From Candidatus Eiseniibacteriota bacterium (GTDB taxonomy: Bacteria > Eisenbacteria > RBG-16-71-46 > CAVPCR01 > CBDCWB01): a stretch of 64,000 bases of DNA. The DNA lies in assembly GCA_965223205.1 (NCBI GenBank), contig OZ244990.1, positions 2,864,170 to 2,928,169 of the forward strand, written 5' to 3'. A program made the translations under genes and the position numbers. Shown here in pieces: positions 7,664 through 32,850 of the stretch. The notes under the pieces are model-generated. The model did not search any database. It was not told where the DNA came from and saw nothing but the letters and a program-made list of their open reading frames with translations. The number at the start of each line of letters is the position of its first letter. The first letter of the stretch is position 1.

Positions 7664-9046
7664 CTACTGTTCTGGCGCGTACGCCGCCAGCTTGCCCTGG
7701 AGGGCGGCGACCTGCGCGTCCCTCGCGGCCTCAAGTGCGCTCAACTGCTGAGCCATGCGTTCGTTTTGGGCGATGAGGGCCTTGACTGCCTCGACCAAGA
7801 GCGGCGTCAATCGGGAGTAATCCATGCCAATTGCGTCGACGCCGTTCTCTTCATAGGCAACGATTTCGGGCAGCACTTCGCCGGTTTCCTCGGCAATCAT
7901 GCCGATGTCGTGGTGACCGCCGTGTTCTTCGTCCCAGTCAAAGGTGACGCCGCGCAGCGCCAGAACCTTCTCGAGCGGCTCCTCGATGGGCTCGACGTTC
8001 CGCTTCCAGCGCCTGGACGAAGTCGAGCCGTAGTCGGTGCCCGCTCCACTGGCAAAAAAGTCGTAGCCCGCTGGACTGACGCAGATCCCTTTCACTCCGA
8101 CCGGCGAGCCGGTTTGAGCGCGGGCCCGACCGAGCACGCCCGTCCCGGTGGCGCTGAACGCGTCCCCAAAGACCCCATGGCTACCTCCCGCGGTCGAGGT
8201 GGAGAGCGCCACCCCCCATACTCCCTTGCCCCCGGACGCGTGGCTTTCCCCGACCACGCCAAAGCCCACGCCGGAGCTGTTGGTGGCTTCGCCGAAGATG
8301 CCCTTGCCACCGAGGGTCGCGTTGGAGACCACCATGGCGTACTCGGTTCCCGAGCTGGGCAGGTGGAATGGGTAGCTGGGGCTAGAGGTCCTGACCCCGA
8401 CGAACCCGCCGTCGGTCACCGTTAGATGGGTCCCCGAGTTGTAGAGATGCCATTTGCTGGTTGTCCCATCGAAGTAGTGATAGGCGTCGACGTCTGCGCC
8501 GGCGGCGTAGCCGTAGAAGGGCCTGGCGCCTTGGCCGGTGGTGCTCGCATACATGCCGCCGAAGCCGTTCGCAACGTCCGAGTGGATGCCGAAGCGTTCA
8601 GCGCCGGTGATCGGATCAGTTCTGCCGATCCCGACGAAGGTGTTCAAAGCGTTGACCGACAAGCCGCGCGTGGCGACCGAGTAGGGTGCGCGGGTGATCG
8701 GCTGGCGCGGGCTGAGGGTGGTGAAGCCCCCGACGCCAGCCGGATAGCGCACCCTGATTTCAAGCCAGCGGTCGCTACCCGGAAACGCCGCCGGGCCAAA
8801 GTCGACGGACACGGTGAAGCGGCCGTCTTGGACCGGGACGTTCGAGTTGGAGTCGGCGCCCAGGTTGTTGCCGCCGGCCGCCGCGTCATAGAGCACCAGC
8901 TCCACGTCACACAGCCCGTCGGCTGGCGTGCCGGTGTCGGTCAGCTCGCCCTGGTAGGTAAAGGTTGTCTCGTTGCCGTGGGCGCTCCAGGCGCCGAGGC
9001 CCAGCCACAGCACTGTCGTTAGAATTTGGCGTTTCATGGTCTGCAC
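7664..9046 (-). CDS. Paralog of 6276..7652: secreted glycine-rich protein with C-terminal intramolecular-chaperone (S74-like) domain
   Basis: Same N-terminal module (TFTYQGELTDTGTPADG), Gly-rich centre and C-terminal SSRRWKRNVEPIE...LALRGVTFDWD...GMIAEETGEVLPEIV...DYSRLTPLLVEAVKAL domain. 11-nt spacing to its tandem partner. Confidence 0.75.
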   Translation of the reverse strand: MQTMKRQILTTVLWLGLGAWSAHGNETTFTYQGELTDTGTPADGLCDVELVLYDAAAGGNNLGADSNSNVPVQDGRFTVSVDFGPAAFPGSDRWLEIRVRYPAGVGGFTTLSPRQPITRAPYSVATRGLSVNALNTFVGIGRTDPITGAERFGIHSDVANGFGGMYASTTGQGARPFYGYAAGADVDAYHYFDGTTSKWHLYNSGTHLTVTDGGFVGVRTSSPSYPFHLPSSGTEYAMVVSNATLGGKGIFGEATNSSGVGFGVVGESHASGGKGVWGVALSTSTAGGSHGVFGDAFSATGTGVLGRARAQTGSPVGVKGICVSPAGYDFFASGAGTDYGSTSSRRWKRNVEPIEEPLEKVLALRGVTFDWDEEHGGHHDIGMIAEETGEVLPEIVAYEENGVDAIGMDYSRLTPLLVEAVKALIAQNERMAQQLSALEAARDAQVAALQGKLAAYAPEQ

Positions 9047-20971: not shown

Positions 20972-21055
20972 GACCCTCTTTCCGTGCGCAGGCGAGCCGC
21001 AACAGGCGCGTCGGACCAGGACAGGTCCGGCTGCGACCGATCGAAAGGACGAGTG

Positions 21056-22402
21056 ATGTACCGGATTTCAGTCATTGGTACGGGCTACGTGGGCCTGGTG
21101 ACCGGGGCCAGCCTCGCCGACTTCGGCAACGACGTTATCTGCGTCGACAAGATCCCCGAAAAGATCCAGAGCCTCAAGCGACTGGAGATCCCGTTTTACG
21201 AGCCGGGGCTGCGCGAGCTGGTGGCGCGGAACGTCGAAGAAGGACGGCTGCATTTCTCGACCGACCTAGCCGCTGCAGTTGCTGAGACGCCGGTCATCTT
21301 CACGGCAGTCGGCACGCCCATGGGTGATGACGGCCGGGCTGATTTGACCGCGGTCTTCGAAGTGGCGCGCGAAGTGGCGCGGGCCATGCAAGGCTACCGG
21401 CTGATCGTCCAAAAGAGTACCGTGCCGGTCGGCACCGGCCGCAAGATCAAGGAGCTCGTCACCGAGAACTTGACCGGTGACCACCCGTTCGACGTCGCTT
21501 CCAACCCCGAGTTCCTGCGGGAAGGCTCCGCGGTGCAGGATTTCACCCATCCCAATCGGGTGGTGATAGGGACGTGGACGGAGCGCGCCGAAAAGCTCAT
21601 CTCCGATATCTACAAGCCCCTCTACTTGCTCGAAGCGCCGATGGTGAAGACGACGGTCGAAACCGCTGAGCTGATCAAGTACGCCGCCAACGCCTTTTTG
21701 GCGACCAAGATCTCGTTCATCAATGAGATTGCCAACCTCTGCGAGGCGCTGGGTGCCGACGTGCGCGAGGTGGCGCACGCCATGGGGTTGGACAATCGCA
21801 TTGGCAACAAGTTCCTACATGCTGGCCCCGGCTACGGCGGTTCGTGTTTTCCGAAGGACACCCGGGCGCTGGCTCACTTTGCCAGCGAGGTGGGCGAGAC
21901 CATGCGCATTGTCGATGCCGTGATCGAGGTCAACGAGCGTCAGATCGAGCGCATGGTTGCCAAGGTGGCCAAGACCTTGGGTGACTTGGACGGCAAGACG
22001 ATTGGCGTCTTGGGGTTGTCGTTCAAACCCAAGACCGACGACATCCGCGACGCGCCGTCGCTGCGCATCATTCGCGGCTTGGTCGAGCAGGGCGCCCAGG
22101 TGCGTGCCTACGATCCGGTGGCCATTCCGCGCGCCGCCGACGAGCTTCCGGACATCGAATACTGCGCCGGCGCCTACGAAACCTGCGACGGGGCGGATGG
22201 AGTCATTGTCGTCACCGAGTGGAATGAATTCAGGCGCCTGGACCTGGAGCGGATCAAGAGCTTGCTCAAGACCCCGGTTTTCTTCGACTTGAAGAACATC
22301 TACTCGCCCACCGAGGTGGCGGCCAAGGGCTTGCGCTACGTCGGCGTTGGGCGCCGGTTCAACGAGAACAACGCCAATCCGGCTTTGGCTTCGACTCGCT
22401 AG
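21056..22402 (+). CDS. ugd: UDP-glucose 6-dehydrogenase
   Basis: N-terminal Rossmann VIGTGYVGLV, catalytic GGSCFPKD motif, and C-terminal UDP-binding domain. ATG at 21056 is preceded by AAAGGA. Confidence 0.9.
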   Translation: MYRISVIGTGYVGLVTGASLADFGNDVICVDKIPEKIQSLKRLEIPFYEPGLRELVARNVEEGRLHFSTDLAAAVAETPVIFTAVGTPMGDDGRADLTAVFEVAREVARAMQGYRLIVQKSTVPVGTGRKIKELVTENLTGDHPFDVASNPEFLREGSAVQDFTHPNRVVIGTWTERAEKLISDIYKPLYLLEAPMVKTTVETAELIKYAANAFLATKISFINEIANLCEALGADVREVAHAMGLDNRIGNKFLHAGPGYGGSCFPKDTRALAHFASEVGETMRIVDAVIEVNERQIERMVAKVAKTLGDLDGKTIGVLGLSFKPKTDDIRDAPSLRIIRGLVEQGAQVRAYDPVAIPRAADELPDIEYCAGAYETCDGADGVIVVTEWNEFRRLDLERIKSLLKTPVFFDLKNIYSPTEVAAKGLRYVGVGRRFNENNANPALASTR

Positions 22403-22411
22403 GAGGGAACC

Positions 22412-23431
22412 TTGGGCGCATTCCTCGACGATGCCAAGCTGCTGGTGACCGGCGGCGCCGGCTTCATCGGTTCAAACTTTGTTCGCCACATCCTTGGCCA
22501 CCATGGCCGGGCGCGCGTCGTGGTTCTGGATGCTCTGACCTACGCCGGCAACATGGATAACCTGGCGGGCTTGGATGCTGAACGCCTGGAGTTTGTGCAC
22601 GGCAACATCTGCGATTTCGACGCGGTTCGCGCCGCCATGCGCGGCTGTAGCGCCGTGGTCAACTTCGCGGCCGAAACCCACGTTGACCGCTCGATTCAGG
22701 ACCCTGGCGGCTTCGTGCAGACCGACGTCTACGGCAGCTTCGTGCTCTTGGAGGTGGCCAAGGAATGTGGCGTCCAGCGGTTCGTGCAAATATCGACCGA
22801 CGAGGTCTACGGCGAGATTCTGGGCGACCCAGTCAAAGAGGATGCGCCCTTGATGCCCCGGAACCCTTACTCGGCGAGCAAGTCGGGGGCCGATCGACTG
22901 GCCTACTCGTACTTTACAACCTACGACTTACCCGTCACGATTACGCGCTGCAGCAACAACTACGGGCCCTACCAGCACGTCGAGAAGCTGTGGCCCTTGT
23001 TTGTGACCAACGCGCTCGAGGACAAACCGCTGCCGGTGTATGGCACCGGGCGCAATCTGCGCGACTGGATCTATGTCGAGGACCACTGTGAAGCCCTGCG
23101 GATGATCCTGAACGCCGATGGCGTGGCTGGCGAGGTGTTCAACATCGGCGCTTCCAACGAGCACTCCAGCCTCGAGATCGGTAAGCTCATCCTGGCGACG
23201 CTGGGCAAGCCGGAGACCCTAATCCAGCACGTGGACGATCGCCCGGGTCACGACCGGCGCTACGCTCTGGATTCCAGCAAGATCACCGCTCAGCTGGGCT
23301 GGATGCCCAACGTTGACTTCAGAGCCGGGGCGGAGCGCACGATCCGCTGGTACTCGGACAACCGCGCGTGGTGGGAGAAGTTGAAGGGTGGGGAATTCAA
23401 GGAGTACTACGAAAAGGCGTACCGCCTGTAG
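22412..23431 (+). CDS. rfbB: dTDP-glucose 4,6-dehydratase
   Basis: TGGAGFIGSNF, HVDRSI, ISTDEVYG, PYSASKSGAD (YxxxK) and RCSNNYGPYQH motifs. TTG start preceded by AGGAGGG. Confidence 0.9.
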   Translation: MGAFLDDAKLLVTGGAGFIGSNFVRHILGHHGRARVVVLDALTYAGNMDNLAGLDAERLEFVHGNICDFDAVRAAMRGCSAVVNFAAETHVDRSIQDPGGFVQTDVYGSFVLLEVAKECGVQRFVQISTDEVYGEILGDPVKEDAPLMPRNPYSASKSGADRLAYSYFTTYDLPVTITRCSNNYGPYQHVEKLWPLFVTNALEDKPLPVYGTGRNLRDWIYVEDHCEALRMILNADGVAGEVFNIGASNEHSSLEIGKLILATLGKPETLIQHVDDRPGHDRRYALDSSKITAQLGWMPNVDFRAGAERTIRWYSDNRAWWEKLKGGEFKEYYEKAYRL

Positions 23432-25001
23432 CGCCTGCAGCGGATTGGCCGCCATGGTGATCGCCGGGGTTTGGAGCCTCGGCGTTTTGCCCGCCGGCCT
23501 GGCTTCACCGGGGGATTGGCGAGGGGACGGCAGAGCCCTGGAGTTACCCCGTGACGTCCGCGAGGCACGCACCTCGGACGCCAGCCCGGACGCCGAAGCC
23601 AATACCTTGGGTCAGCCGGTGGATCCCGCCACCTACCAGGTGGGACCCGGCGACCTCTTGCGCCTGGCGGTAGGCGGCGGCGACCTCGAACCCTACAACC
23701 TGTGGGTGGACGCCGAAGGCGGCTTGGCGTTGCCCGACGGCAGCCGCGTGGATTTGGCCGGGTTGACCTTGACCGAGGCCCGGGCGGCCGTTGCCAAGGC
23801 CTTGGCGCGCGAGTACCGCCGCGTGCAGTTCGACTTGGGCTTAGTCCGCCCCCGCCGCTTCAAGGTCCACGTCGGTGGCGCAGTCGCCCGCCCGGGCAGC
23901 TACCTGGCCAGCCCTTTGACGTTGACCAGCGAGGTGTTGGAGCGGGCCGGCGGCGTACTCGAGGACGGCTCTCAGCGGCGCGTGCGGTTGGTCGGTACGG
24001 ACGGCAGTGAGCGCTACGCTGACTTGGTGGGATTCGCCTTTCTCGCCGACCGGGAGCGCAACCCCGCAGTGCGCGCCGACGACCTCATCCAGGTGCCGGT
24101 CGCCGTCGACTTCGTGGCGGTCTGGGGAGGGGTGGCGCGCCCGGGGCGCTATGAACTTCGAGACGGCGAAACCATCGGCGACCTTGTTGCCTTGGCTGGT
24201 GGGTTGCTGCCCGAGGCCGACGCCACCCGAATCGAGTGGCGGCACGCCGAAGCAGGACGCTTCGGCGCCCCCGGCGTGGTCGCGTTGAGTGCCACCGATT
24301 CCCAGACCTTGGCAGTTGGCGATGCGCTGGTAGTTCCAACGTTCTACGACCGCGGGCGGCTAGCAGCTACCGTCGAAGTCGAAGGCGAGGTGCCAAGTCC
24401 TGGGGTCTATCCGATCCAGCCGGGGGTCGACCGCGCCCGCCAGTTGCTCGAGTGGGCGGGGGGCTTCACCGAGGCAGCGAACGTTCGGGGGGTTCGACTC
24501 CTGCGGGCGCCCGAGGAACTTCAGGCGGTGGACGCCGAAGACGAGGCGTTGCCGATCGCTGGCGAGGCTGCCCGTTTGGCCCGCCGCCGCGGCCGCCAAC
24601 CCGTGGAGGTGGAATGGTCAGAATCCGGTGGTGCCAATCCAACCTTGGCCGATGGCGACTTGCTGGTCGTCCCGCGCCTGAGTGGCAGGGTTTGGGTGGG
24701 CGGCCGGGTCAAACAACCGGGCTGGGTGGCCTACCAACCGGGGCTGGCGGTGAAGGCGGCCATCCAAGCCGCCGGCGGCTTCGATCGGGGCGCCCACCGC
24801 GGTGGCCTGTTGTTGAGTCCGGTCGGGACCACGGGACACCTGGTGAGCGCTGATTCGGAGCGCCTGTTGATCGACGGGGATCGGCTCTGGGTGCCCGAGA
24901 AGGCACCGATTGGCGGGTGGCAAGTGTTTCGGGACGTCGTCTCCGTCGCTGCGCAGCTGGCGACCATCGCCATTATCGTCGACCAGGTGCGCCGTAACTG
25001 A
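23388..25001 (+). CDS. Polysaccharide biosynthesis/export protein (Wza-like, SLBB-type beta-grasp domains)
   Basis: Signal peptide; repeated 'PG.Y.L..G.T..D....AGG' soluble-ligand-binding beta-grasp modules of outer-membrane polysaccharide export proteins. GTG start at 23388 overlaps rfbB; an in-frame ATG at 23454 is an alternative. Confidence 0.7.
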   Translation: MGNSRSTTKRRTACSACSGLAAMVIAGVWSLGVLPAGLASPGDWRGDGRALELPRDVREARTSDASPDAEANTLGQPVDPATYQVGPGDLLRLAVGGGDLEPYNLWVDAEGGLALPDGSRVDLAGLTLTEARAAVAKALAREYRRVQFDLGLVRPRRFKVHVGGAVARPGSYLASPLTLTSEVLERAGGVLEDGSQRRVRLVGTDGSERYADLVGFAFLADRERNPAVRADDLIQVPVAVDFVAVWGGVARPGRYELRDGETIGDLVALAGGLLPEADATRIEWRHAEAGRFGAPGVVALSATDSQTLAVGDALVVPTFYDRGRLAATVEVEGEVPSPGVYPIQPGVDRARQLLEWAGGFTEAANVRGVRLLRAPEELQAVDAEDEALPIAGEAARLARRRGRQPVEVEWSESGGANPTLADGDLLVVPRLSGRVWVGGRVKQPGWVAYQPGLAVKAAIQAAGGFDRGAHRGGLLLSPVGTTGHLVSADSERLLIDGDRLWVPEKAPIGGWQVFRDVVSVAAQLATIAIIVDQVRRN

Positions 25002-25239
25002 CAGCCGTGCTGGGGGATTTCACCCGGTGCGGCACCGGCGAACCCGCGGCTGGGGGCTGGCCTTGGCTGAGATCCGGGATCTGCCGATGACCCCGAGAGC
25101 ATTCAGGGAGATGAACGACCGGCCGCGCTGTACGACAGAAGGTCGTCGGCGCCCCAGCCGGCCCCGCGCCGTTCGGCCAAGTTGTCGTACCGGGCGCACT
25201 TACGGGACTGCTTCGGGCGTGGAGTGGGGCACACAAGGC

Positions 25240-25268
25240 TTGACACTGTATCGGCCTTACCGTATCGT
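25240..25268 (+). promoter_or_regulatory. Candidate promoter (-35 TTGACA, 17-nt spacer, -10 TATCGT) in the 390-bp gap upstream of the epimerase gene
   Basis: Perfect -35 hexamer and a weak -10 in an otherwise GC-rich intergenic region that becomes AT-richer toward the gene. Confidence 0.25.
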
Positions 25269-25391
25269 ACTCGCCATTCGCCCGGTTTTAAGCTGCAAGT
25301 TGTTGTTATTCTTAGAGTTGGCTGATGCACAGCGAGGGAATCGGGTTGTGGAGTGCCGGTGTGATCAGAGGCAGCTCGGGGAGGATCGAGC

Positions 25392-26426
25392 TTGATGCGT
25401 GACTTGGTGACGGGAGGCGCGGGGTTCATCGGCTCCCACCTCGTCGAGGCTTTGCTCAACAAGGGTGACGAGGTCCTGGTCATTGACGACCTATCCACCG
25501 GCAGCCTCAGGAATCTGCGGCATCTGTCTGGGCACCCGCGGCTGATCTTTCTGGAAGATTCAGTCCTCAACCGGCCGGTGGTCGAACGCCTGGTATCCCA
25601 GGTGGACCGCGTCTTTCATCTGGCGGCGGCGGTTGGCGTGCAGTATGTCGTCGAAAATCCGCTCGAGGCACTGCGGACCAACATCCACGGCGCTGAGTAT
25701 GTCCTCGAGGCAGCCAAGCGCGACCAGAAGCCGGTCGTTATGTTCTCGACCTCCGAGGTCTATGGCAAGTCAGACGACGTGCCGTTTCGGGAAGATTCCG
25801 ACCGCGTCATGGGCTCGACCGCCATCTCCCGTTGGGGTTACGCCAGCTCGAAGGCGGTCGACGAATTCCTGGCGCTGGCCTATCATCGGGCTCACGAGTT
25901 ACCGGTTGTCATTGTGCGGTGCTTCAACACGTGTGGGCCGCGCCAATCGGGGCGCTATGGAATGGTCGTACCACGCTTCGTGCAGAACGCCATCCAAAAC
26001 CGTCCCATCCAGGTCTACGGCACTGGCGACCAAACCCGGTGCTTCTCGTTCGTCGGTGATGTGGTGCGCGGCGTCGTCTTGTTGGCCGACACTGATGCTG
26101 CCTACGGTGAAGTTTTCAACATCGGCACGGACGAAGAAGTGTCGATTCGAACGCTGGCAGAACGGGTGAAAGCACGGGTGGGTTCGTCCTCACCGATCGT
26201 CTCGATGCCCTACGAAGAGGTCTACGGGACGAGCTTCGAAGACATGCAGCGGCGCGTGCCGGACCTCAACAAGATTCGCCGGTTCGTCGGCTACCAACCC
26301 GAGGTCAGGCTGGACGAACTCCTCGAGATGACCATCGAATCGGTGCGGGCGGAACTCGCCGAAGGCGAGAGCACGCCACCCACCGATCGCCTGCTGTCGA
26401 GCGCCGTGCCGCCGGCTAGCTCCTAG
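25392..26426 (+). CDS. NAD-dependent epimerase/dehydratase (UDP-glucuronate decarboxylase / ArnA-C-terminal-like short-chain dehydrogenase)
   Basis: VTGGAGFIGSHLV Rossmann motif, STSEVYG, YASSKAVDE (YxxxK) and RCFNTCGPRQ motifs. Co-located with ugd. Confidence 0.85.
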   Translation: MMRDLVTGGAGFIGSHLVEALLNKGDEVLVIDDLSTGSLRNLRHLSGHPRLIFLEDSVLNRPVVERLVSQVDRVFHLAAAVGVQYVVENPLEALRTNIHGAEYVLEAAKRDQKPVVMFSTSEVYGKSDDVPFREDSDRVMGSTAISRWGYASSKAVDEFLALAYHRAHELPVVIVRCFNTCGPRQSGRYGMVVPRFVQNAIQNRPIQVYGTGDQTRCFSFVGDVVRGVVLLADTDAAYGEVFNIGTDEEVSIRTLAERVKARVGSSSPIVSMPYEEVYGTSFEDMQRRVPDLNKIRRFVGYQPEVRLDELLEMTIESVRAELAEGESTPPTDRLLSSAVPPASS

Positions 26427-26435
26427 TTCTCCTGC

Positions 26436-27407
26436 ATGCACAGTGGTGTCGTGGCGTTTGCCATTGCCTTGGCAACCGTCGCCGTTGCCACGCCTGGCGT
26501 TCGCCGCCTTGCCATCCGCCTGAACCTGGTGGACCAACCCTCCGCCCGCCGCTTCCACCAAGCCGCCGTGCCGCTGGCTGGCGGCGTGGCCATCCTCCTG
26601 GGATGGTGGTTGGGGGCGGGTTGGGTCCACCGGCAAATAGCCGTCCCCGAGTTTCAACCCTTCTGGATAGGTAGTCTTGGGGCACTGCTTCTCGGGTTGG
26701 TCGACGACGCGCGCGGCTTGCCGCCGCTGGTCAAGCTGGCTGGACAGGTGGCGCTGGCGGTGTTTCTGGTCGGTGCCGTCGGCCCCAATGGCTTGGGCTG
26801 GGCCGTCGTCGCCGGCGTTTGGGTGGTGGGGCTCATGAACGCATGCAACTTCCTGGACAACATGGACGGCATCTTGGCTGGTAGCTCGTGCCTGTCGGCT
26901 CTGGCCTTTTGGGTAGTTCTGGCGCCAGCGCCGGTCGCCGCACTGGCGGCAGCGACGACCGGCGCGTGTTTGGGCTTTTTGTTCTTCAACTTCGCACCGG
27001 CGCGCGTGTTCATGGGTGATGCCGGTTCACTGGCACTGGGTTACCTGCTGGGTGGGCTGTCGCTGTTGATAGCTACCCGGGCACCGGCGGGGCCGGCATG
27101 GGTGGCGGTCGCCCTGGCGCTTTGCTACCCATTGTTCGACCTGATCTTTGTCACCTGGACCCGGATCCGCGACGGTCGCAAGTTCTACCTGGGGGGGCGC
27201 GACCACACCTCCCACCGGCTGAACTCCCTGGTTGCGAGCCCGCACCGCACGGCGCTGGGGGTCTACGCCCTCGCCGCGGCGGGAGCGATGGCGGCGGTCG
27301 TGGTCGACGGGTCGTCGTCGCCGACTGTGGCAATTGTCTTGGCTGTCGCCGCGACACTGATGCTGGCGTGGGTGGGCGTCAGGTTGGCGCGCGTGCCCAT
27401 CCGTTAG
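26436..27407 (+). CDS. Undecaprenyl-phosphate sugar-1-phosphate transferase (MraY/WecA family, GT4 polyprenyl-phosphate transferase)
   Basis: About 10 TM segments and the NACNFLDNMDGILAG signature (NxxNxxDGxDGL) of the MraY/WecA family. Confidence 0.8.
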   Translation: MHSGVVAFAIALATVAVATPGVRRLAIRLNLVDQPSARRFHQAAVPLAGGVAILLGWWLGAGWVHRQIAVPEFQPFWIGSLGALLLGLVDDARGLPPLVKLAGQVALAVFLVGAVGPNGLGWAVVAGVWVVGLMNACNFLDNMDGILAGSSCLSALAFWVVLAPAPVAALAAATTGACLGFLFFNFAPARVFMGDAGSLALGYLLGGLSLLIATRAPAGPAWVAVALALCYPLFDLIFVTWTRIRDGRKFYLGGRDHTSHRLNSLVASPHRTALGVYALAAAGAMAAVVVDGSSSPTVAIVLAVAATLMLAWVGVRLARVPIR

Positions 27408-27508
27408 GCCGCTTGTGTTGAGCGCTCGGCGCTCCACGTGGTAGGATTCCACCTCACTCTACACTGCCAATCCCGCCTCCTTGACAACGCCCAGCCCCGC
27501 GGACAGGT

Positions 27509-28696
27509 ATGTCCCTACGACCTGAGCCTATCCCGAGCCGCGCTCATGTGGTCGCCCCAGATGTGAAGGCGGCCGAGCCGGTGTTTGCCGACTACTGCTA
27601 TGGCGTTGCTCGGCGCGCGCGGCGGATTCTGGCGATGGCGGCGCTCGCCGGCGTGGCAGCGGCCGTCTTTGCGTTGTTGCACCCCAGTTGGTATGCCGCG
27701 CGTTGCACCTTCCTGCCATCCCGGGGCGAAAGCCGTGGGCCGAACGTCACCATGTTGTTGAATCGGGTGCTGGGTGGCGGTGCCGGCCTGACTGACGCCG
27801 TCCAAGCGGGTGACCTCACCGTCGTCATCATGCGCAGCGAGTATGTGCGCCAGCAACTAGTCGAAGAGTTCGACCTGGTCGAGCGCTACGAGGCCAAAAC
27901 GGCGCGCGGCGCCGCAGCCCAGCTCCTCGACCGCATGCGCTTCTTCGTCGGCCAAGAGGGCCTGGTGACGGTCTGGGTCGAAGACCGTGATCCAGAACTA
28001 GCTGCCCAGTTGGCCAACCGCACGGTCGCACTGTTGGATCGTTTCAACGCCGAGCGGCGCATGACCGATGGGCGGCGTACGCGGTTGTTTGTGGAGCGCG
28101 AGCTGGCCAAGGTGTCGGCCAACCTGGCGGCAGCCGAAGACTCGTTGCAGACCTATGTGGCGGCGGCCAAGAGCGTGCCGATGGCCTTCGACTCTGAGGC
28201 GATGGCGGCGCAGAGCCTGCTCATCAGCCGCAGGATGGAGCTGGAGATTCAACTCGACATGGAGCGCGAGGTGAAGTCCGATCGCGCCGAGTCGGTGCGC
28301 CTCCTGCAGTCCGAGCTCGACAAGATCAACGAGGCGCTCGGTGAATTGCCAGAAGTGAGTCTCGAGTACGCCAGGCTGCTGCGCGAGGTCAGCGTTCAAG
28401 AGAATCTCTACGAACTTTTGCGGGCCAACTACGAAGAGGCCAAGGTCCGCGAAGCCGAGGACACCCAGTCGATTAGTGTGGTCGACCAGGCCCAGCCGCC
28501 TACCGTGCGCTCCCGACCGCGCCGTAAGCTAATGGTGGCATCGGCTGCCGGAGCCGCCGGGTTTCTCGCTTTGCTGTGGGCGTTGATTGCCACCTACTTC
28601 GAGCTGCTGCCGCCGGGGAGTCGCCACCAGCGCCTGTTCGCCGCCACAGGTCACGAGTTGCGTCGCCTGCTGCGTTGGCCGAGGCGGGCCGACTGA
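27509..28696 (+). CDS. Polysaccharide co-polymerase (Wzz/GumC-like chain-length determinant)
   Basis: Two TM helices (MAALAGVAAAVFALL and AAGAAGFLALLWALIATYF) flanking a long coiled-coil periplasmic region. Stop overlaps the serS ATG. Confidence 0.65.
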   Translation: MSLRPEPIPSRAHVVAPDVKAAEPVFADYCYGVARRARRILAMAALAGVAAAVFALLHPSWYAARCTFLPSRGESRGPNVTMLLNRVLGGGAGLTDAVQAGDLTVVIMRSEYVRQQLVEEFDLVERYEAKTARGAAAQLLDRMRFFVGQEGLVTVWVEDRDPELAAQLANRTVALLDRFNAERRMTDGRRTRLFVERELAKVSANLAAAEDSLQTYVAAAKSVPMAFDSEAMAAQSLLISRRMELEIQLDMEREVKSDRAESVRLLQSELDKINEALGELPEVSLEYARLLREVSVQENLYELLRANYEEAKVREAEDTQSISVVDQAQPPTVRSRPRRKLMVASAAGAAGFLALLWALIATYFELLPPGSRHQRLFAATGHELRRLLRWPRRAD

Positions 28697-29994
28697 TGCT
28701 CGACCTGCGGGCTTTGCGAGCCGACCCCGATGGCTGGCGCGGTGATCTGGAGCGCAAGGGCGGGCGAGACGCGGCCGAGCGCTTGGATCGGATTCTTAGC
28801 GCCGATGAACGGCGCCGGCAGCTCTTGGTCGAAGTCGAGGCGTTGAAGCGCCAGCGAAACGAGACCTCCAAAGAAATTGGTCGCCGGCGCGCTCTGGGCG
28901 ACGGCGCCGCGCCAGAGATGGCGGCGATGAAGGAAGTGGCAGCGTCGATCAAGGCGCTCGATCAAGAACTCAAAGGTGTCGAACTCGAGGTCCAGGACGA
29001 ACTGGCCTGGTTGCCCAACCGCCCCCACCCGGAGGTGCCGGATGGGACCGACGACAGCGCCAACGTCGTGTGCTCGACGAAGGGCGCGCCCCCGAAGTTT
29101 GACTTCGAGCCGCGCAATCACCTGGAGCTGGGGGCAACCCTCGACATGTTCGACTTCGAGGCGGCGGCGGCCCTGTCGGGGGCTGGCTTTGCCGTTTTTC
29201 GAGGCGCCGGGGCGCGCCTGGTGCGCGGGCTCATTCAGTGGATGATCGATCTCCACGTCGGCCAGCACGGTTACACCGAGGTGTGGACGCCGGCGGTCGT
29301 GCGCGAACACGCCTTGTTTGGCACCGGGCAACTGCCCAAGCTCAAAGAGGACATGTACGAGCTGAGCCGCGACGAGGGGTTCTTGATCCCCACCGCTGAG
29401 GTGACCATCACCGGCCTGGCGGCCGATCGGACCTATCCTGAGGCTGATCTGACCACCAAGCTGGTGGGCTACACGCCGTGTTTCCGCCGCGAGGCCGGTG
29501 CTGCCGGCCGCCTAACGCGCGGGCTCCTGCGACTTCACCAGTTCGACAAGGTGGAGCTGGTGCGGATCGCTCACCCCGAGCGTTCCTGGGACGACCACGC
29601 CGAACTGTTGGGCGAGGTCGCCGCTGTGTTGGATCAGCTGGGCTTGCACTACCGCACGACCGAGTTGTGCACGGGCGACTTGAGCTTTGCTGCGGCTCGT
29701 TGTTTCGACCTGGAGGTCTGGGCGCCGGGCGAGAGGCGTTGGCTCGAGGTGTCCTCCTGCTCGAACTATCTCGACTTTCAGGCGCGGCGTTTGGGCACCC
29801 GTATGGCTCCAGCCGATGGCGGCAAGTCGGTCCTCGCCCATACCCTGAACGCCTCGGGGCTGGCCTTGCCCCGTCTGATCGTCGCCCTCTTGGAGACCTA
29901 TCAAACAGCGAGTGGCGCGGTGACCTTGCCCGAAGTGTTGCGCCCCTACATGGCCGGGCTGGACCAACTCCAACCACGCGTCGGCGCCGTCTGA
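28696..29994 (+). CDS. serS: Seryl-tRNA synthetase
   Basis: N-terminal coiled-coil arm (MLDLRALRADPD...), class II aaRS motifs (GYTPCFRREAG; TTELCTGDLSFAAARCFDLEVWAP). The ORF-track start at 28576 is an in-frame extension. Confidence 0.92.
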   Translation: MLDLRALRADPDGWRGDLERKGGRDAAERLDRILSADERRRQLLVEVEALKRQRNETSKEIGRRRALGDGAAPEMAAMKEVAASIKALDQELKGVELEVQDELAWLPNRPHPEVPDGTDDSANVVCSTKGAPPKFDFEPRNHLELGATLDMFDFEAAAALSGAGFAVFRGAGARLVRGLIQWMIDLHVGQHGYTEVWTPAVVREHALFGTGQLPKLKEDMYELSRDEGFLIPTAEVTITGLAADRTYPEADLTTKLVGYTPCFRREAGAAGRLTRGLLRLHQFDKVELVRIAHPERSWDDHAELLGEVAAVLDQLGLHYRTTELCTGDLSFAAARCFDLEVWAPGERRWLEVSSCSNYLDFQARRLGTRMAPADGGKSVLAHTLNASGLALPRLIVALLETYQTASGAVTLPEVLRPYMAGLDQLQPRVGAV

Positions 29995-30003
29995 GACTGA
30001 CGG

Positions 30004-31275
30004 ATGGCGTCGCCGTCCACGACCGCCCAGCACGCGACGCCGCCCTGGCTGCGCGGCTACGTATTCGTCGGTGCCGGGCTCCTGGTTGCCGGCTTGTTTC
30101 TCTACACCCATAACGTGGCGCTGCGGCTCGAGCGGCAGGCAAGAACTTCGACGCGGGTGCTAGCCGACTTCTTCGCCACCGTCACCCTGCAGGCGATTGA
30201 GTCAGAGCCGGTGCACCGCGTGTTCCGTGACGTGCTGGATCGGGTGGATTTTCCGGTGGTGGTGACCGATGCCGAGGGCCGCCCCATCGCCTGGCGGCGG
30301 GTCGACGTCGACCCCAACGCTGTCTCGGTCCAAGAGCAGATGGCCTTCGACCCCACGAGCCCGCCGGTCGACGGACCGCTGGCCGAGTTGCACGGGGTGA
30401 TTCAGGCAATGGACAGCGAGAACCCGCCGGTGCCGATGATCCACCCGCAGTTGCAACGCAAGATGGGCGAGGTGCACTTCGGGGAGTCGCGCCTGGTGCG
30501 GGAACTGCGGTGGGTGCCGGTGGTGGAACTGTTCGCCTTTTTTCTTTTCATTGCTCTGGGCTACTTGGGCTTCCGCAGCGCCCGCGTCGCCGAGCAACGT
30601 TACATCTGGGTGGGCATGGCCAAGGAGACCGCTCACCAGTTGGGGACGCCGACCTCCTCGCTGCTCGGCTGGCTCGAGATGCTCCGCTTGCGCGGCGACA
30701 GTGGCGCCGCCGCTGGAACCGTCAGCCTGGAACGGCGGTTCTTCGAGGAGACCGTCGCCGAAATGTCCTCGGACATCGACCGGTTGGGCAAGGTGGCGGC
30801 GCGCTTTTCACAAGTCGGATCGACGCCGCAAAAGAAACTTCAACCGCTAACGCCAGTCGTCGAAGCAACAGTGCGGTACGTTCGCCGCCGGGCCGGCGCC
30901 GGCACCGAGATTCGGGAGCGCTATGCTCAATCACCGCCGGTCGCAATCAACGCCCAACTCATCGAGTGGGTGATCGAAAACGTTCTAAAAAACGCGCTGG
31001 ACGCCAGCTCTGGCGGCGGCCAGATTCTCGTCGAGGTGTTCCCGCACTTGGACGGGGAGGCAATCGAAGTCGACATCTCTGATCAGGGGGCTGGCATGGA
31101 CGCCGCCCAGCAGCGCCGGGCCTTCGCCCCGGGTTTCTCCACCAAACAGCGCGGCTGGGGACTCGGGCTGTCGCTTGCGAAGCGCATCATCGAGGAATAT
31201 CATGGCGGGCGCATTTGGATAAAGCGCAGCCGCTTGGGGGAAGGCACGACTATCGCCATGTCGTTGCCTTGCTAG
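30004..31275 (+). CDS. Membrane sensor histidine kinase (PorY-like)
   Basis: Two TM helices around a periplasmic segment, H-box AHQLGTPTSSLLGWLEML, HATPase_c G-boxes (DQGAGMD; GWGLGLSLAKRIIEEYHG). Confidence 0.85.
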   Translation: MASPSTTAQHATPPWLRGYVFVGAGLLVAGLFLYTHNVALRLERQARTSTRVLADFFATVTLQAIESEPVHRVFRDVLDRVDFPVVVTDAEGRPIAWRRVDVDPNAVSVQEQMAFDPTSPPVDGPLAELHGVIQAMDSENPPVPMIHPQLQRKMGEVHFGESRLVRELRWVPVVELFAFFLFIALGYLGFRSARVAEQRYIWVGMAKETAHQLGTPTSSLLGWLEMLRLRGDSGAAAGTVSLERRFFEETVAEMSSDIDRLGKVAARFSQVGSTPQKKLQPLTPVVEATVRYVRRRAGAGTEIRERYAQSPPVAINAQLIEWVIENVLKNALDASSGGGQILVEVFPHLDGEAIEVDISDQGAGMDAAQQRRAFAPGFSTKQRGWGLGLSLAKRIIEEYHGGRIWIKRSRLGEGTTIAMSLPC

Positions 31276-31287
31276 GACGGAGCCAAC

Positions 31288-32850
31288 ATGTCTGATGCAC
31301 GCGCGGTCCTCTGGGCCGACGATGAAATCGATCACCTCAGGCCCCACATTCTCTTCTTGGAGGAGCGGGGCATCCAAGTAACACCGGTCACCAACGGCGA
31401 GGACGCGGTGTCTATGTTCCATCAGCGGCGCTACGACGCCGTGCTGCTCGATGAGATGATGCCGGGCATGGGCGGCTTGGACACGCTCGAAGCCATCAAG
31501 GCCGTGAATCCTGATGTGCCGGTGGTGTTGATTACCAAGAGCGAGGAAGAGTCGCTCATGAACGACGCCATCGGCCGGCGCATCTCTGACTACCTCACCA
31601 AGCCGGTGAATCCCAGCCAGGTGTTTCTGGCGATCAAGCGGCTCCTGGAAGGCGTGGCGATCCAACAAGGGCACCTCACGCGGGACTTCGTGCAGGAATT
31701 CGCGCGGCTCCAGGCCACCGATACCGCCGCCCTCGATGCCAATGGCTGGATCGAGCTGTACGTCAAGATGACCGGTTGGGACTTGCGGCTCGAGGAAATG
31801 CGCGACGCCGGGCTAGACCAGTCGTACGCCGACCTCAAGAAGCAGTTGAACCATGTCTTCTGTCGCTACTACGAGACTCACTATCGCGATTGGATGGCGG
31901 CCAGCGGCGACCGGCCGGTGTTTTCGCCCGAGATCGTTTCAAAGTACGTGCAGCCGCATCTCTCTGCCGGCAAGCGGGTCTATCTGGTGGTGGTCGACTG
32001 CATGCGGCTGGATCAGTGGATGGCAGTGCAGCCGCTGCTGGCGCCCCTGTTCGATGTGACCAACGACTACTACTTCTCGATTGTTCCCAGTGCGACGCCG
32101 TACGCCAGAAACGCCATTTTCTCCGGCCTCTATCCGCTGGGCCTCTACCGCGACTACCCCGACTACTGGCAGGAGCGTCTGGTGGGCGAGGGGTCTAAGA
32201 ACCGATTTGAGGCCGAGCTGTTGAGCCTGCAACTCGAGCGCCTGGGGAACAAACCCCTGAGCCAGAAGTACGTCAAGATCTACAGCATGGAGGACGGTCA
32301 GGCCCTCGGCCGCCAGATCGAGAGCTTTCGGTCACTGGACGTGGTCGCCTTGGTGTTCAACTTTGTGGACATCTTTGCCCACGGGCGCAGTGAATCAGAA
32401 ATTCTGCGCGAGTTGGCCCCGGACGAGGCGGCGCTCCGCTCGGTAATGACCTCGTGGTTTGCGCACTCCACACTCCTCGAGGTGTTGCGCTCGATCGCCA
32501 GGCAACCCGACGCCGTGCTGGTCCTGACCACCGACCACGGCGCTACGATCGGCATGCGGTCGTCGCTGGTCTACGGCGACCGCACCACCTCCACCAACGT
32601 TCGCTACAAGTATGGCGACAATTTGAAGTGCGACGACAAGCAAGCGGTTCACGTCAACTCGCCCGAGGAGTTCAACCTGCCGGCAGATACGCTCAACAAG
32701 AACTACTTGCTCGCCAAAGAGGACTACTACTTCGTCTATCCCACGAACTACCACGACTACGAACGGCAGTACCGCGGTAGCATCCAGCACGGCGGCATCT
32801 CTTTGGAGGAGTTGGTGCTGCCCTGCGCCACGTTGGTGCCGCGCGCGTGA
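31288..32850 (+). CDS. Response regulator with CheY-like receiver fused to a PglZ (alkaline-phosphatase-superfamily) effector domain; PorX-like
   Basis: Receiver motifs (VLWADDE...VLLDEMMPGMGG...LTKP) followed by about 400 aa with PglZ hallmarks (VVVDCMRLDQW, PSATPYARNAIFSG, TTDHG). 12 nt downstream of the kinase gene. Confidence 0.8.
   Translation: MSDARAVLWADDEIDHLRPHILFLEERGIQVTPVTNGEDAVSMFHQRRYDAVLLDEMMPGMGGLDTLEAIKAVNPDVPVVLITKSEEESLMNDAIGRRISDYLTKPVNPSQVFLAIKRLLEGVAIQQGHLTRDFVQEFARLQATDTAALDANGWIELYVKMTGWDLRLEEMRDAGLDQSYADLKKQLNHVFCRYYETHYRDWMAASGDRPVFSPEIVSKYVQPHLSAGKRVYLVVVDCMRLDQWMAVQPLLAPLFDVTNDYYFSIVPSATPYARNAIFSGLYPLGLYRDYPDYWQERLVGEGSKNRFEAELLSLQLERLGNKPLSQKYVKIYSMEDGQALGRQIESFRSLDVVALVFNFVDIFAHGRSESEILRELAPDEAALRSVMTSWFAHSTLLEVLRSIARQPDAVLVLTTDHGATIGMRSSLVYGDRTTSTNVRYKYGDNLKCDDKQAVHVNSPEEFNLPADTLNKNYLLAKEDYYFVYPTNYHDYERQYRGSIQHGGISLEELVLPCATLVPRA

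What the first reader, a model, noticed from the sequence alone, without database searches (positions are those of the whole stretch)
20984..28696. Surface-polysaccharide locus built around UDP-glucuronate and dTDP-sugar chemistry
Co-directional genes for UDP-glucose 6-dehydrogenase, dTDP-glucose 4,6-dehydratase, a Wza-like export protein, a UXS/ArnA-like dehydratase, a WecA/MraY-family initiating transferase and a Wzz-like co-polymerase indicate a Wzx/Wzy-type or export-dependent polysaccharide pathway. Within the window there is no flippase, polymerase, or further glycosyltransferase apart from the GT4 at 5054-6253, and no rmlA/C/D genes, so the cluster is incomplete or split. A 390-bp non-coding gap with a TTGACA -35 box precedes the dehydratase gene.
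Basis: partly seen in the sequence, partly recalled or inferred. Interest (0 to 1): 0.4.

Follow-up and report, generated by a model that had tools for sequence, protein, structure and literature searches.

The report
Partial capsule/exopolysaccharide gene cluster, conserved
This is an ordinary six-gene piece of a bacterial surface-sugar (capsule or slime) pathway that makes sugar precursors, starts the chain on a lipid carrier and exports the polymer. It lacks the flipping and polymerising genes, and relatives keep it almost unchanged between the same housekeeping genes.

Summary
Window 20984-28696 holds six co-directional genes:
- ugd, true start 21056
- an rmlB-type dTDP-glucose 4,6-dehydratase
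- a UXS-like short-chain dehydrogenase (SDR2)
- a WecA/MraY-family initiating transferase (PNPT)
- a kinase-less chain-length/co-polymerase protein (PCP) with a GNVR domain

A non-coding gap of about 390 bp carries TTGACA-N17-TATCGT. This motif occurs once in the window and is conserved at the same place in four distinct relatives' loci.

No wzx, wzy, BY-kinase or rmlA/C/D gene lies in the 64 kb. The best reading is a split Wzx/Wzy-type capsule or exopolysaccharide pathway.

New points:
- The source is a Candidatus Eisenbacteria-like genome, and four distinct relatives' loci keep the same gene order between pyrF and serS, so this is a stable core locus, not a variable island.
- SDR2-PNPT-serS-histidine kinase-PorX is syntenic across several FCB candidate phyla, with a variable cassette upstream.
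- SDR2's constant neighbour is the PNPT, not ugd, so its substrate is uncertain.

Verdict: an ordinary new member of a known kind, of low interest.

The parts
21056..22402 (+). ugd, UDP-glucose 6-dehydrogenase (448 aa). The ORF opens at GTG 20984, but an ATG preceded by AAAGGA at 21056 fits the length of the orthologs.
   Evidence: Pfam: three UDPG_MGDP_dh domains. TIGR03026 471 bits, above its cutoff. The TuaD equivalog scores 562 bits, below its 700 cutoff. Sequence read. 70-72% identical to Eisenbacteria orthologs.
22412..23431 (+). rmlB-type dTDP-glucose 4,6-dehydratase (339 aa, STDEVYG motif), 9 nt after ugd.
   Evidence: TIGR01181 431.5 bits against a cutoff of 365.1. PDB 1r66 345 bits, E 3e-102. 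73% identical to orthologs.
23454..25001 (+). OPX, a Wza-like outer-membrane polysaccharide export protein (515 aa). It has a signal peptide, a Poly_export domain, four SLBB/beta-grasp domains and a hydrophobic C-terminal helix (residues 488-514). A GTG at 23388 is an alternative start. No lipobox.
   Evidence: Pfam. Family profile against Wza 2e-35. AF2 model pLDDT 82.8. Foldseek top hits Wza 2w8h/9r64/2j58, E about 1e-17. An identical protein, P0001, is in the database.
25004..25086 (+). GC-rich hairpins directly after the OPX stop codon. Possibly a terminator without a U-tract; the evidence is weak.
   Evidence: MFE -53.6 kcal/mol, z -2.09 against shuffles. The consensus scan found no T-tract terminator here.
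25240..25268 (+). Sigma-70-type promoter-like site TTGACA-N17-TATCGT, about 125 nt upstream of SDR2.
   Evidence: 10 of 12 matches to the consensus. Unique in the window, 0.01 expected. The same motif lies at the orthologous position in L001/L005, L004, L018 and L019.
25395..26426 (+). SDR2, an extended short-chain dehydrogenase of the UXS/ArnA/RmlB group (343 aa). It carries the motifs STSEVYG, Y-x3-K, FNTxGPR and QTR. It is a probable UDP-glucuronate decarboxylase, but its substrate is unverified.
   Evidence: PDB best hit is human UXS1 4lk3, 192 bits, 39% identity, with the motifs aligned. No NCBIfam cutoff is met: LegB 181, RmlB 170, U4kpxs 147.
26436..27407 (+). PNPT, a WecA/MraY-family polyprenyl-phosphate HexNAc-1-phosphate transferase (323 aa, about 10-12 TM segments), 9 nt after SDR2. 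Motifs read directly: VDDARG, NACNFLDNMDG, FMGDAGS, DHTSHRL.
   Evidence: PF00953 E 6e-26. TIGR02380 wecA 96.9 bits, below its 326 cutoff. MraY structures E 2e-12. TM scan. Sequence.
27509..28696 (+). PCP, a polysaccharide co-polymerase / chain-length protein (395 aa). It has TM segments at about residues 40-58 and 342-360, a periplasmic coiled region and a GNVR motif. It has no kinase domain.
   Evidence: GNVR E 1.5e-10; the Wzz domain reaches only 15.7 bits. It matches the Wzc periplasmic region at E 1e-6 and the 390-aa capsular biosynthesis protein 8tsh (which I recall to be KpsE) at 3e-5. TM scan.
28696..32850 (+). Context genes packed onto the same strand with no room for a promoter: serS (28696-29994), whose ATG overlaps the PCP stop in TGATG; a histidine kinase (30004-31275); and a PorX-type response regulator (31288-32850). 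They are probably co-transcribed from the 25240 promoter.
   Evidence: Sequence. Intergenic distances of -1, 9 and 12 nt. Pfam. PorX structures 7pv7 and 8ted at 447-458 bits over the full length.

Best explanation
The region is the precursor, initiation and export core of a Wzx/Wzy-type capsule or exopolysaccharide pathway in a Candidatus Eisenbacteria-like diderm. It is organised as two transcription units.

**Unit 1: ugd-rmlB-opx**
- It makes UDP-glucuronate and dTDP-4-keto-6-deoxyglucose.
- It encodes the outer-membrane channel, a Wza-like multimer with four periplasmic beta-grasp rings and a C-terminal helix that would span the membrane.

**Unit 2: sdr2-PNPT-pcp, probably reading on into serS and the kinase/PorX pair**
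- It starts from its own conserved TTGACA-N17-TATCGT promoter.
- SDR2, a UXS-like enzyme, most likely decarboxylates UDP-GlcA to UDP-xylose or a 4-keto-pentose.
- The PNPT puts a HexNAc-1-phosphate on undecaprenyl phosphate.
- The kinase-less PCP couples polymerisation to the OPX.

**What is missing**

The remaining glycosyltransferases, Wzx, Wzy, RmlA and the enzymes that finish the dTDP-sugar must be encoded elsewhere in the 4.58-Mb genome.

**Shown and inferred**
- Shown: the family assignments, the gene order, the conservation of the locus, and the conservation of the promoter motif.
- Inferred: the substrates, the operon structure, the Wzx/Wzy mode of export, and the role of the C-terminal helix as the pore.
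For: - Family and fold assignments for all six proteins.
- Tight spacing inside each unit (9, 22, 9, 101 and -1 nt) and a 390-nt non-coding gap between the units.
- The promoter motif is unique in the window and recurs upstream of the SDR2 orthologs in L001/L005, L004, L018 and L019.
- Four distinct Eisenbacteria loci (five locus ids; L001 and L005 are the same contig region) share the order pyrF-...-ugd-rmlB-opx-gap-sdr2-PNPT-pcp-serS where their contigs extend that far. The proteins are 40-76% identical, which shows purifying selection on the whole set.
- In a more distant relative (L020), a Wzy_C protein, a Polysacc_synt (Wzx) flippase and GT4/GT9 genes lie directly upstream of sdr2-PNPT-serS. 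This ties the pair to Wzx/Wzy chemistry.
- An Und-P-dependent PNPT is the classic initiator for Wzx/Wzy pathways, whereas Kps-type ABC capsules use a lipid-Kdo primer (established knowledge).
- No wzx or wzy candidate is in the window.
- LptD and the Tol proteins in the window show a diderm envelope.
Against: - No flippase, polymerase, BY-kinase or RmlA/C/D has been seen, so the pathway type rests on analogy.
- The PCP matches the 390-aa capsular biosynthesis protein 8tsh (which I recall to be KpsE) nearly as well as Wzc.
- The OPX is long, is not a lipoprotein and has no detectable Pfam Wza_C domain. This resembles KpsD-type class 2B proteins as much as class 1 (PMC9603273).
- The Zixibacteria versions of the locus also lack wzx and wzy between opx-pcp and the PNPT.
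- SDR2 meets no curated cutoff. It occurs next to the PNPT in loci with no ugd within 8-10 kb, so its substrate may not be UDP-GlcA.
- Transcription units are inferred from spacing and a motif only.
Confidence: 0.68

Rival explanations
1. Two functionally separate modules that are neighbours only by descent. In this reading sdr2-PNPT(-pcp) is an ancient core pair that initiates a lipid-linked glycan of its own, for example an O-antigen-like or protein- or lipid-attached glycan finished by periplasmic GT-C enzymes. SDR2 would make the PNPT's unusual UDP-HexNAc-derived substrate (a 4,6-dehydrated, 4-epimerised or decarboxylated GlcNAc or GlcNAcA) rather than UDP-xylose. ugd-rmlB-opx would serve another polymer.
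For: - SDR2-PNPT-serS-kinase-PorX is conserved in Latescibacteria (L019), in L020 and, as sdr2-PNPT, in L008, all without ugd nearby.
- SDR2 is 52-78% identical across these lineages. That is far more conserved than the OPX, PCP or PNPT.
- PNPTs use 2-acetamido sugars, not xylose (established knowledge).
- The SDR2 score against the LegB 4,6-dehydratase model (181 bits) is as high as against the UXS-type models.
- The unit has its own promoter.
- A GT-C enzyme exists in the window.
Against: - In Eisenbacteria the PCP sits inside the sdr2-PNPT unit and the OPX directly upstream. In Zixibacteria opx-pcp and the PNPT bracket a single locus. This argues for one pathway.
- The SDR2 motifs (STSEVYG, FNTxGPR, QTR) align best with UXS1.
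- Ugd is present and conserved in the Eisenbacteria loci whose contigs cover that position.
Confidence: 0.17
2. An ABC-transporter-dependent (group 2/3 capsule-like) pathway. In this reading the OPX and PCP are KpsD/KpsE-type partners of an ABC exporter encoded elsewhere.
For: - The PCP has no kinase, is 395 aa long, and matches the 390-aa capsular biosynthesis protein 8tsh (which I recall to be KpsE) at E 3e-5.
- The OPX is 515 aa with an SPI-type signal, several SLBB domains and Foldseek similarity to GfcC (3p42, E 3e-7). Class 2B KpsD-like proteins share these features (PMC9603273).
- No wzx or wzy is in the window.
Against: - No KpsM/T, KpsC/S or Wzm/Wzt is in the window. The only ABC parts are MacB/FtsX-type with an HlyD adaptor, 17 kb away.
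- A PNPT initiator is not part of Kps-type systems.
- No Pfam GfcC domain is detected.
- L020 has Wzx and Wzy_C next to the orthologous sdr2-PNPT.
Confidence: 0.1
3. A decaying remnant of a once complete locus, no longer producing a polymer.
For: More distant relatives carry larger cassettes with GT4s, sugar-modifying enzymes, Wzx and Wzy at the same position. The closer relatives have two extra SDR genes between pyrF and ugd that this genome lacks.
Against: - All six ORFs are intact, with coding-type GC3 of 0.76-0.82.
- Catalytic motifs are intact.
- The same set is kept across relatives at 40-76% protein identity.
- The promoter is conserved.
Confidence: 0.04

Closest known systems
E. coli group 1 capsule / colanic acid export machinery (Wza-Wzc with WecA- or WbaP-type initiation, Wzx, Wzy)
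   Same: - A Poly_export plus SLBB export protein with a C-terminal helix. The fold and the family profile match Wza.
- A 2-TM periplasmic PCP with GNVR that matches the periplasmic part of Wzc.
- ugd lies in the locus, as in the colanic acid and K30 loci (established knowledge).
   Different: - The OPX has four rather than two SLBB domains, no lipoprotein signal and no detectable Wza_C Pfam domain.
- The PCP has no tyrosine kinase domain, and no Wzb or separate kinase is present.
- wzx, wzy and the glycosyltransferases are not in the locus.
Myxococcus xanthus EPS pathway (kinase-less PCP EpsV, OPX EpsY/WzaX; PMC7484181, PMC9603273)
   Same: A Wzx/Wzy-type pathway whose PCP lacks a kinase domain and whose genes are not all contiguous. 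The OPX gives a weak hit to the EpsY model.
   Different: - The M. xanthus OPX proteins are short class 3 proteins paired with an 18-strand beta-barrel (PMC9603273). Here the OPX is long, ends in a helix, and has no adjacent beta-barrel gene.
- The initiator there is a PHPT; here it is a PNPT.
E. coli group 2 capsule KpsD/KpsE
   Same: The size and architecture of the pair are similar: a long multi-domain OPX with an SPI signal, and a PCP of about 390 aa without a kinase.
   Different: No KpsMT, KpsCS or GfcC domain is present. An Und-P PNPT is present.
UDP-xylose synthase / UDP-glucuronate decarboxylase (human UXS1; bacterial UXS, ArnA C-terminal domain, RsU4kpxs)
   Same: SDR2 aligns end to end with UXS1 at 39% identity. 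The T-S-E, Y-x3-K, FNTxGPR and QTR motifs are conserved, and ugd is in the same locus.
   Different: - SDR2 falls below every curated family cutoff.
- It belongs to a large, uncharacterised and very conserved subfamily that sources name inconsistently.
- Its conserved neighbour is a PNPT.
WecA / WbpL-type PNPT initiating transferases, often paired with an SDR (e.g. WbpV-WbpL, WreQ-WreU; recalled from memory)
   Same: PF00953 fold, about 11 TM segments and the catalytic Asp motifs. An SDR gene sits immediately upstream.
   Different: - Only 97 bits to the WecA model, against a cutoff of 326.
- The sugar specificity is unknown.
- The paired SDR looks like a decarboxylase or dehydratase, not a reductase or epimerase.

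Membership tests
Wzx/Wzy-dependent capsule/EPS pathway | Initiating polyprenyl-phosphate phosphoglycosyl transferase | tested here: met
   PF00953 PNPT at 26436-27407 with intact Asp motifs.
Wzx/Wzy-dependent capsule/EPS pathway | Wzx flippase (MOP family) and Wzy polymerase | tested here: not met
   None found in the 64-kb window by Pfam or by a multi-TM scan. The rest of the genome was not available. Both are present upstream of the orthologous sdr2-PNPT in L020.
Wzx/Wzy-dependent capsule/EPS pathway | PCP and OPX export pair | tested here: met
   GNVR 2-TM protein and a Wza-like protein.
Wzx/Wzy-dependent capsule/EPS pathway | BY-kinase (fused to the PCP or separate) and phosphatase | tested here: not met
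   The PCP ends about 35 aa after its second TM segment. No P-loop kinase gene is in the window. This feature is not universal; M. xanthus EpsV lacks it.
ABC-transporter-dependent capsule (Kps type) | KpsM/KpsT ABC-2 exporter and KpsC/KpsS Kdo transferases | tested here: not met
   Absent from the window. Only MacB/FtsX permeases with an HlyD adaptor are present, at 743-4432.
ABC-transporter-dependent capsule (Kps type) | KpsD-type OPX with a GfcC module; KpsE-type PCP-3 | tested here: inconclusive
   No Pfam GfcC domain even at E up to 10, but Foldseek hits GfcC 3p42 at 3e-7. The PCP hits the 390-aa capsular biosynthesis protein 8tsh (which I recall to be KpsE) at 3e-5, against Wzc at 1e-6.
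Class 1 OPX (Wza type; Saidi et al. 2022, PMC9603273) | Poly_export followed by one or more SLBB domains | tested here: met
   Poly_export plus four SLBB stretches. The fold matches Wza.
Class 1 OPX (Wza type; Saidi et al. 2022, PMC9603273) | C-terminal outer-membrane-spanning Wza_C helix | tested here: inconclusive
   AF2 predicts a 27-residue terminal helix (residues 488-514) that is hydrophobic and conserved in the family. Pfam Wza_C is not detected, and no HHpred-type test was run.
Class 1 OPX (Wza type; Saidi et al. 2022, PMC9603273) | Lipoprotein signal (about 78% of class 1 members) | tested here: not met
   No lipobox cysteine follows the hydrophobic signal segment (sequence).
dTDP-L-rhamnose (rml) pathway | RmlB dTDP-glucose 4,6-dehydratase | tested here: met
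   TIGR01181 above its cutoff. PDB 1r66 345 bits. TDE motif.
dTDP-L-rhamnose (rml) pathway | RmlA, RmlC and RmlD | tested here: not met
   None in the window. The only nucleotidyltransferase is an alternative GlmU (TIGR03991).
UDP-glucuronate decarboxylase (UXS) family, for SDR2 | Extended SDR with T-S-E and Y-x3-K catalytic residues, the closing Arg, and full-length similarity to UXS | tested here: met
   Alignment to 4lk3 over residues 3-323, with STSEVYG, Y..SK, FNTCGPR and QTR aligned. 39% identity.
UDP-glucuronate decarboxylase (UXS) family, for SDR2 | Score above a curated family threshold, or demonstrated activity on UDP-GlcA | tested here: not met
   No NCBIfam cutoff is reached: PRK11908 146.9 against 294, LegB 180.7 against 475. 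Enzyme activity cannot be tested with these tools.
WecA-type PNPT | PF00953 domain with DD, NxxNxxDxxDG and FMGDxGS motifs | tested here: met
   The motif positions are read from the sequence against recalled WecA/MraY motifs.
WecA-type PNPT | Equivalog-level similarity to WecA (GlcNAc-1-P specificity) | tested here: not met
   TIGR02380 96.9 bits against a cutoff of 326.

The most novel reading that the evidence does not exclude
The unit sdr2-PNPT(-pcp)-serS-histidine kinase-PorX, driven by one conserved promoter, could be an ancient module of the FCB superphylum. In that reading, initiation of a core surface glycan is transcriptionally tied to the PorXY-type regulator of type IX secretion. 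The glycan might be the one that anchors or accompanies T9SS cargo. The highly conserved SDR2 would not be a UDP-xylose synthase. It would make an unusual UDP-HexNAc-derived donor, such as UDP-XylNAc or a 4-keto-6-deoxy-HexNAc, for the PNPT.
Probability: 0.08. Interest if true: 0.55.

Novelty: new member of a known kind. Interest (0 to 1): 0.17.

Why it matters
The locus gives a first, modest handle on the cell-surface glycan of an uncultured candidate phylum (Eisenbacteria). It identifies which genes are the conserved core: SDR2, the PNPT, the PCP, the OPX, ugd and rmlB. It also locates a conserved sigma-70-type promoter.

It flags a very large, well conserved and inconsistently annotated SDR subfamily that sits next to PNPT initiators and has never been assayed.

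Otherwise the finding is a routine polysaccharide cluster. It does not challenge current models.

Tried and rejected
- **Known RNA families.** Rfam at gathering thresholds gave no hit in the whole window, and there are no tRNA genes. No known riboswitch or leader lies in the gap.
- **Structured leader RNA.** I tested whether the roughly 125-nt leader (25275-25400) is a structured RNA. Its z-score is -0.39 against shuffles, and its sequence is conserved only patchily. Rejected.
- **Hidden gene in the gap.** The three ORFs there have non-coding GC3. Their only conserved stretch is the antisense of the SDR2 N-terminus. Rejected.
- **Repeats or a mobile element in the gap.** Only short, chance-level repeats were found. 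GC content across the locus (0.62-0.68) is within the window's range, so there is no sign of recent transfer.
- **PEP-CTERM/XrtA-type EPS system.** The OPX, PCP and GT4 give their weak best hits to such models, but all fall far below the cutoffs. Not supported.
- **Exact-sequence look-ups of the window's own PNPT and OPX.** Both failed, so the rest of the source genome could not be inspected.
- **Locus search with the 26-sequence OPX alignment.** The alignment was too diverse, so a 7-sequence alignment was used instead.
- **L012, a distant Eisenbacteria locus.** It was left unparsed because its ORF structure is fragmented.
- **Family searches for the GT-C protein.** Pfam and NCBIfam found nothing. 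Only structure prediction identified it.

Full report
**Observation**

The window is about 66% G+C, and almost all genes lie on the + strand. Between 20984 and 28696 there are six co-directional ORFs.

Pfam, NCBIfam and searches of solved structures give these assignments:
- **Ugd.** UDP-glucose 6-dehydrogenase, with three UDPG_MGDP_dh domains. TIGR03026 scores 471 bits, above its cutoff. The TuaD equivalog scores 562 bits, below its 700 cutoff.
- **RmlB.** dTDP-glucose 4,6-dehydratase. The TIGR01181 equivalog scores 431.5 against 365.1. PDB 1r66 scores 345 bits.
- **OPX.** A polysaccharide export protein with Poly_export and four SLBB stretches.
- **SDR2.** A second extended short-chain dehydrogenase. 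Its best solved relative is human UDP-glucuronate decarboxylase UXS1 (192 bits, 39% identity). The motifs STSEVYG, Y-x3-K, FNTxGPR and QTR are aligned.
- **PNPT.** A PF00953 WecA/MraY-family transferase with about 10-12 TM segments.
- **PCP.** A 395-aa protein with two TM segments and a GNVR motif. It matches the periplasmic part of Wzc (1e-6) and the 390-aa capsular biosynthesis protein 8tsh, which I recall to be KpsE (3e-5). It has no kinase domain.

The gene starts need small corrections:
- ugd starts at ATG 21056.
- The OPX starts at 23454 in the database call (P0001).
- SDR2 starts at ATG 25395.

The 390-bp gap (25002-25391) is real and non-coding. Its ORFs have GC3 of 0.62-0.66, against 0.76-0.87 for genes. 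The only conserved stretch is the antisense of the SDR2 N-terminus.

**The promoter**

TTGACA at 25240 is followed by a 17-nt spacer and TATCGT, which matches 10 of 12 consensus positions. The pattern occurs once in 64 kb, with 0.01 expected.

The same TTGACA-N17-TATCGT lies about 110-140 nt upstream of the SDR2 ortholog in three independent Eisenbacteria loci (L001/L005, L004, L018). TTGACA-N17-TATTTT lies at that position in a Latescibacteria locus, L019.

This is good comparative evidence for a real promoter. The leader downstream of it is not detectably structured (z -0.39), and Rfam finds nothing in the window. GC-rich hairpins follow the OPX stop codon (z -2.09) and may act as a terminator.

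**Surroundings**

Upstream is a pyrimidine operon: pyrR-like, pyrB, pyrC, carA, carB, a TPR gene, pyrK, pyrD and pyrF.

Downstream, serS starts on the last base of the PCP stop codon, in the sequence TGATG. A histidine kinase follows after 9 nt. A response regulator follows after a further 12 nt. The response regulator is a full-length ortholog of PorX, scoring 447-458 bits to PDB entries 7pv7 and 8ted, which I recognise as PorX structures.

The rest of the window is housekeeping: tsaB, rimI, accD, folC, a ROK kinase, LptD, ligA, the Tol proteins and others.

No Wzx, Wzy, BY-kinase, RmlA/C/D or Kps-type genes were found. A hydrophobicity scan of all coding-like ORFs leaves no unexplained multi-TM protein.

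The gene at 47778-49340 has no Pfam or NCBIfam hit. It has six or more TM segments and a weak sequence hit to AftB. Its family has an invariant N-terminal Asp-Asp pair.

Its AlphaFold model is of high confidence (pLDDT 92.7, pTM 0.92). The model's top PDB matches are all GT-C glycosyltransferases: ArnT at TM 0.61, then AftB, ALG9/12, STT3/PglB and Emb.

So the window does contain a glycosyltransferase besides the GT4 at 5054-6253. In a distant relative its homolog sits inside a glycan cluster. In Eisenbacteria it sits in the same housekeeping context as here.

**Origin and comparative genomics**

Proteins identical to the OPX, to SDR2 and to the GT-C protein lie on a single 4,583,619-bp NCBI/ENA contig. 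The nearest relatives are Candidatus Eisenbacteria/Eiseniibacteriota MAGs.

Where their contigs extend, the Eisenbacteria loci L001/L005, L003, L004 and L018 show the order pyrF-[two extra SDR genes]-ugd-rmlB-opx-gap-sdr2-PNPT-pcp-serS-kinase-PorX-tsaE-tsaB. L003 and L004 are truncated contigs, and the two extra SDR genes are seen in L001/L005, L003 and L018. Identities to the window proteins are:
- 70-76% for ugd, rmlB and SDR2
- 40-53% for the OPX, PNPT and PCP

The 'incomplete' six-gene set is therefore a stable arrangement under purifying selection. It is not a strain-variable island or a wreck. The window genome lacks the two extra SDR genes, which are GMD/LegB-like.

At greater depth, sdr2-PNPT-serS-kinase-PorX-tsaE-tsaB is kept in Latescibacteria DG_63 (L019) and in another lineage (L020). 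The cassette upstream of sdr2 differs between them:
- L019 has GT4s, AsnB, a GFO/IDH/MocA oxidoreductase and a WecB-like epimerase.
- L020 has Wzy_C, GT4s, GT9 and a Polysacc_synt flippase.

Zixibacteria-type loci have opx-pcp-(WbpB/D/E/I-like enzymes)-GT4s-DUF3473 deacetylase-(sdr2)-PNPT-serS.

This suggests an old locus in the FCB superphylum. It is bracketed by opx-pcp and by (sdr2-)PNPT-serS, with a variable middle. In this Eisenbacteria clade the middle has shrunk, and pcp has moved to sit behind the PNPT.

**The export protein**

A profile of 26 family members hits Wza at 2e-35.

The AlphaFold model (pLDDT 82.8) shows a Poly_export domain, four beta-grasp domains and a terminal helix at residues 488-514. 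Its best PDB matches are Wza structures, at E about 1e-17. The helix is hydrophobic and conserved.

Pfam Wza_C and GfcC are not detected, and there is no lipobox. In the scheme of Saidi et al. (PMC9603273) the protein is a helix-bearing OPX, class 1-like. Assignment to class 2B (KpsD-like) cannot be excluded.

**Mechanism proposed**

Steps that are shown are the family assignments. Steps that are inferred are marked as such.
1. Ugd oxidises UDP-Glc to UDP-GlcA (the family is shown; the substrate is inferred from TuaD-level similarity).
2. SDR2 decarboxylates UDP-GlcA to UDP-Xyl or a 4-keto-pentose (inferred from motifs and from UXS1 similarity).
3. RmlB makes dTDP-4-keto-6-deoxy-Glc (equivalog level). 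RmlA and the finishing enzymes are encoded elsewhere.
4. The PNPT forms Und-PP-HexNAc (the family is shown; the sugar is unknown).
5. Glycosyltransferases, Wzx and Wzy encoded elsewhere build, flip and polymerise the repeat units (inferred).
6. The PCP and OPX pass the polymer through the periplasm and the outer membrane (inferred by homology to Wzc-Wza).

**Main uncertainty**

SDR2's constant partner across phyla is the PNPT, not Ugd, and PNPTs use 2-acetamido sugars.

SDR2 could therefore make or modify the PNPT's substrate. Its score against the LegB 4,6-dehydratase model is as high as against the UXS-type models, and no curated cutoff is met.

**Verdict**

The locus is a new member of a well known kind, a PCP/OPX-type surface polysaccharide locus, in a poorly studied phylum. 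Three things are mildly interesting:
- the deep synteny with serS and the PorX/kinase pair;
- the conserved promoter;
- the uncharacterised SDR2 subfamily.

None of these is surprising enough to raise the score much.

Noticed in passing
window 47778-49340 (+): A 520-aa protein with six or more TM segments and no Pfam or NCBIfam hit. Its AF2 model (pLDDT 92.7) matches GT-C glycosyltransferases: ArnT at TM 0.61, AftB, ALG9/12 and STT3/PglB. It has an invariant N-terminal DD. The family is small (57 hits) and unannotated. In a distant relative (L022) its homolog sits in a glycan cluster with PglF-like, DegT and GT4 genes.
   Followed up: yes
window 30004-32850 (+): A histidine kinase immediately followed by a full-length PorX ortholog (receiver plus PglZ domains; 447-458 bits to PDB entries 7pv7 and 8ted, which I recognise as PorX structures). 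Here the kinase and PorX genes are adjacent and packed behind serS. As I recall, porX and porY are unlinked in P. gingivalis.
   Followed up: partly
window 25395-32850; L018, L019, L020: The block sdr2-PNPT-serS-kinase-PorX-tsaE-tsaB(-rimI) is syntenic across Eisenbacteria, Latescibacteria and a further lineage. PNPT-serS adjacency is also seen in Zixibacteria (L009).
   Followed up: partly
window 6276-7652 (-) and 7664-9046 (-): Two tandem paralogs of about 460 aa. Each has a signal-like N-terminus and a C-terminal Peptidase_S74 domain (the intramolecular chaperone of endosialidase and tail-spike proteins). They lie next to the GT4 at 5054-6253. No other domain was found.
   Followed up: no
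window 61561-62802 (-): An alternative bacterial GlmU-type enzyme (TIGR03991, 331 bits against a cutoff of 225; Pfam NTP_transf_4). It is the only sugar nucleotidyltransferase in the window, and it is not an RmlA.
   Followed up: partly
L001 5499-7476; L003 696-2589; L018 3382-5407: Eisenbacteria relatives carry two extra SDR genes (GMD/LegB-like, with no cutoff met) between pyrF and ugd. The window genome has only a 153-nt spacer there.
   Followed up: partly
window 16719-18473 (+): A 584-aa TPR/YfiO-like protein sits inside the pyrimidine operon between carB and pyrK. The same insertion is present in the relatives L001 and L018.
   Followed up: no
window 50624-51811 (+): A 395-aa secreted-looking protein with a CSSCH (CxxCH-like) motif near the N-terminus and no Pfam or NCBIfam hit. 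A gene of similar size with no Pfam hit occupies the same position before ligA in L021; its similarity to this protein was not tested.
   Followed up: no
L009 18314-20593 (+): In one Zixibacteria locus a single 759-aa ORF combines an N-terminal PNPT domain (PF00953) with a C-terminal Bac_transf (PHPT) fragment. It lies directly before serS. It could be a real fusion or an assembly or ORF-calling artefact.
   Followed up: no
L008 6355-8853; L009 7136-9634; L010 7162-9660: In L008, an 832-aa fusion of a sugar-1-phosphate nucleotidyltransferase (with LbH repeats) and a phosphoglucomutase/phosphomannomutase sits directly upstream of opx (Pfam). L009 and L010 have an 832-aa ORF at the same position that was not scanned.
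   Followed up: no
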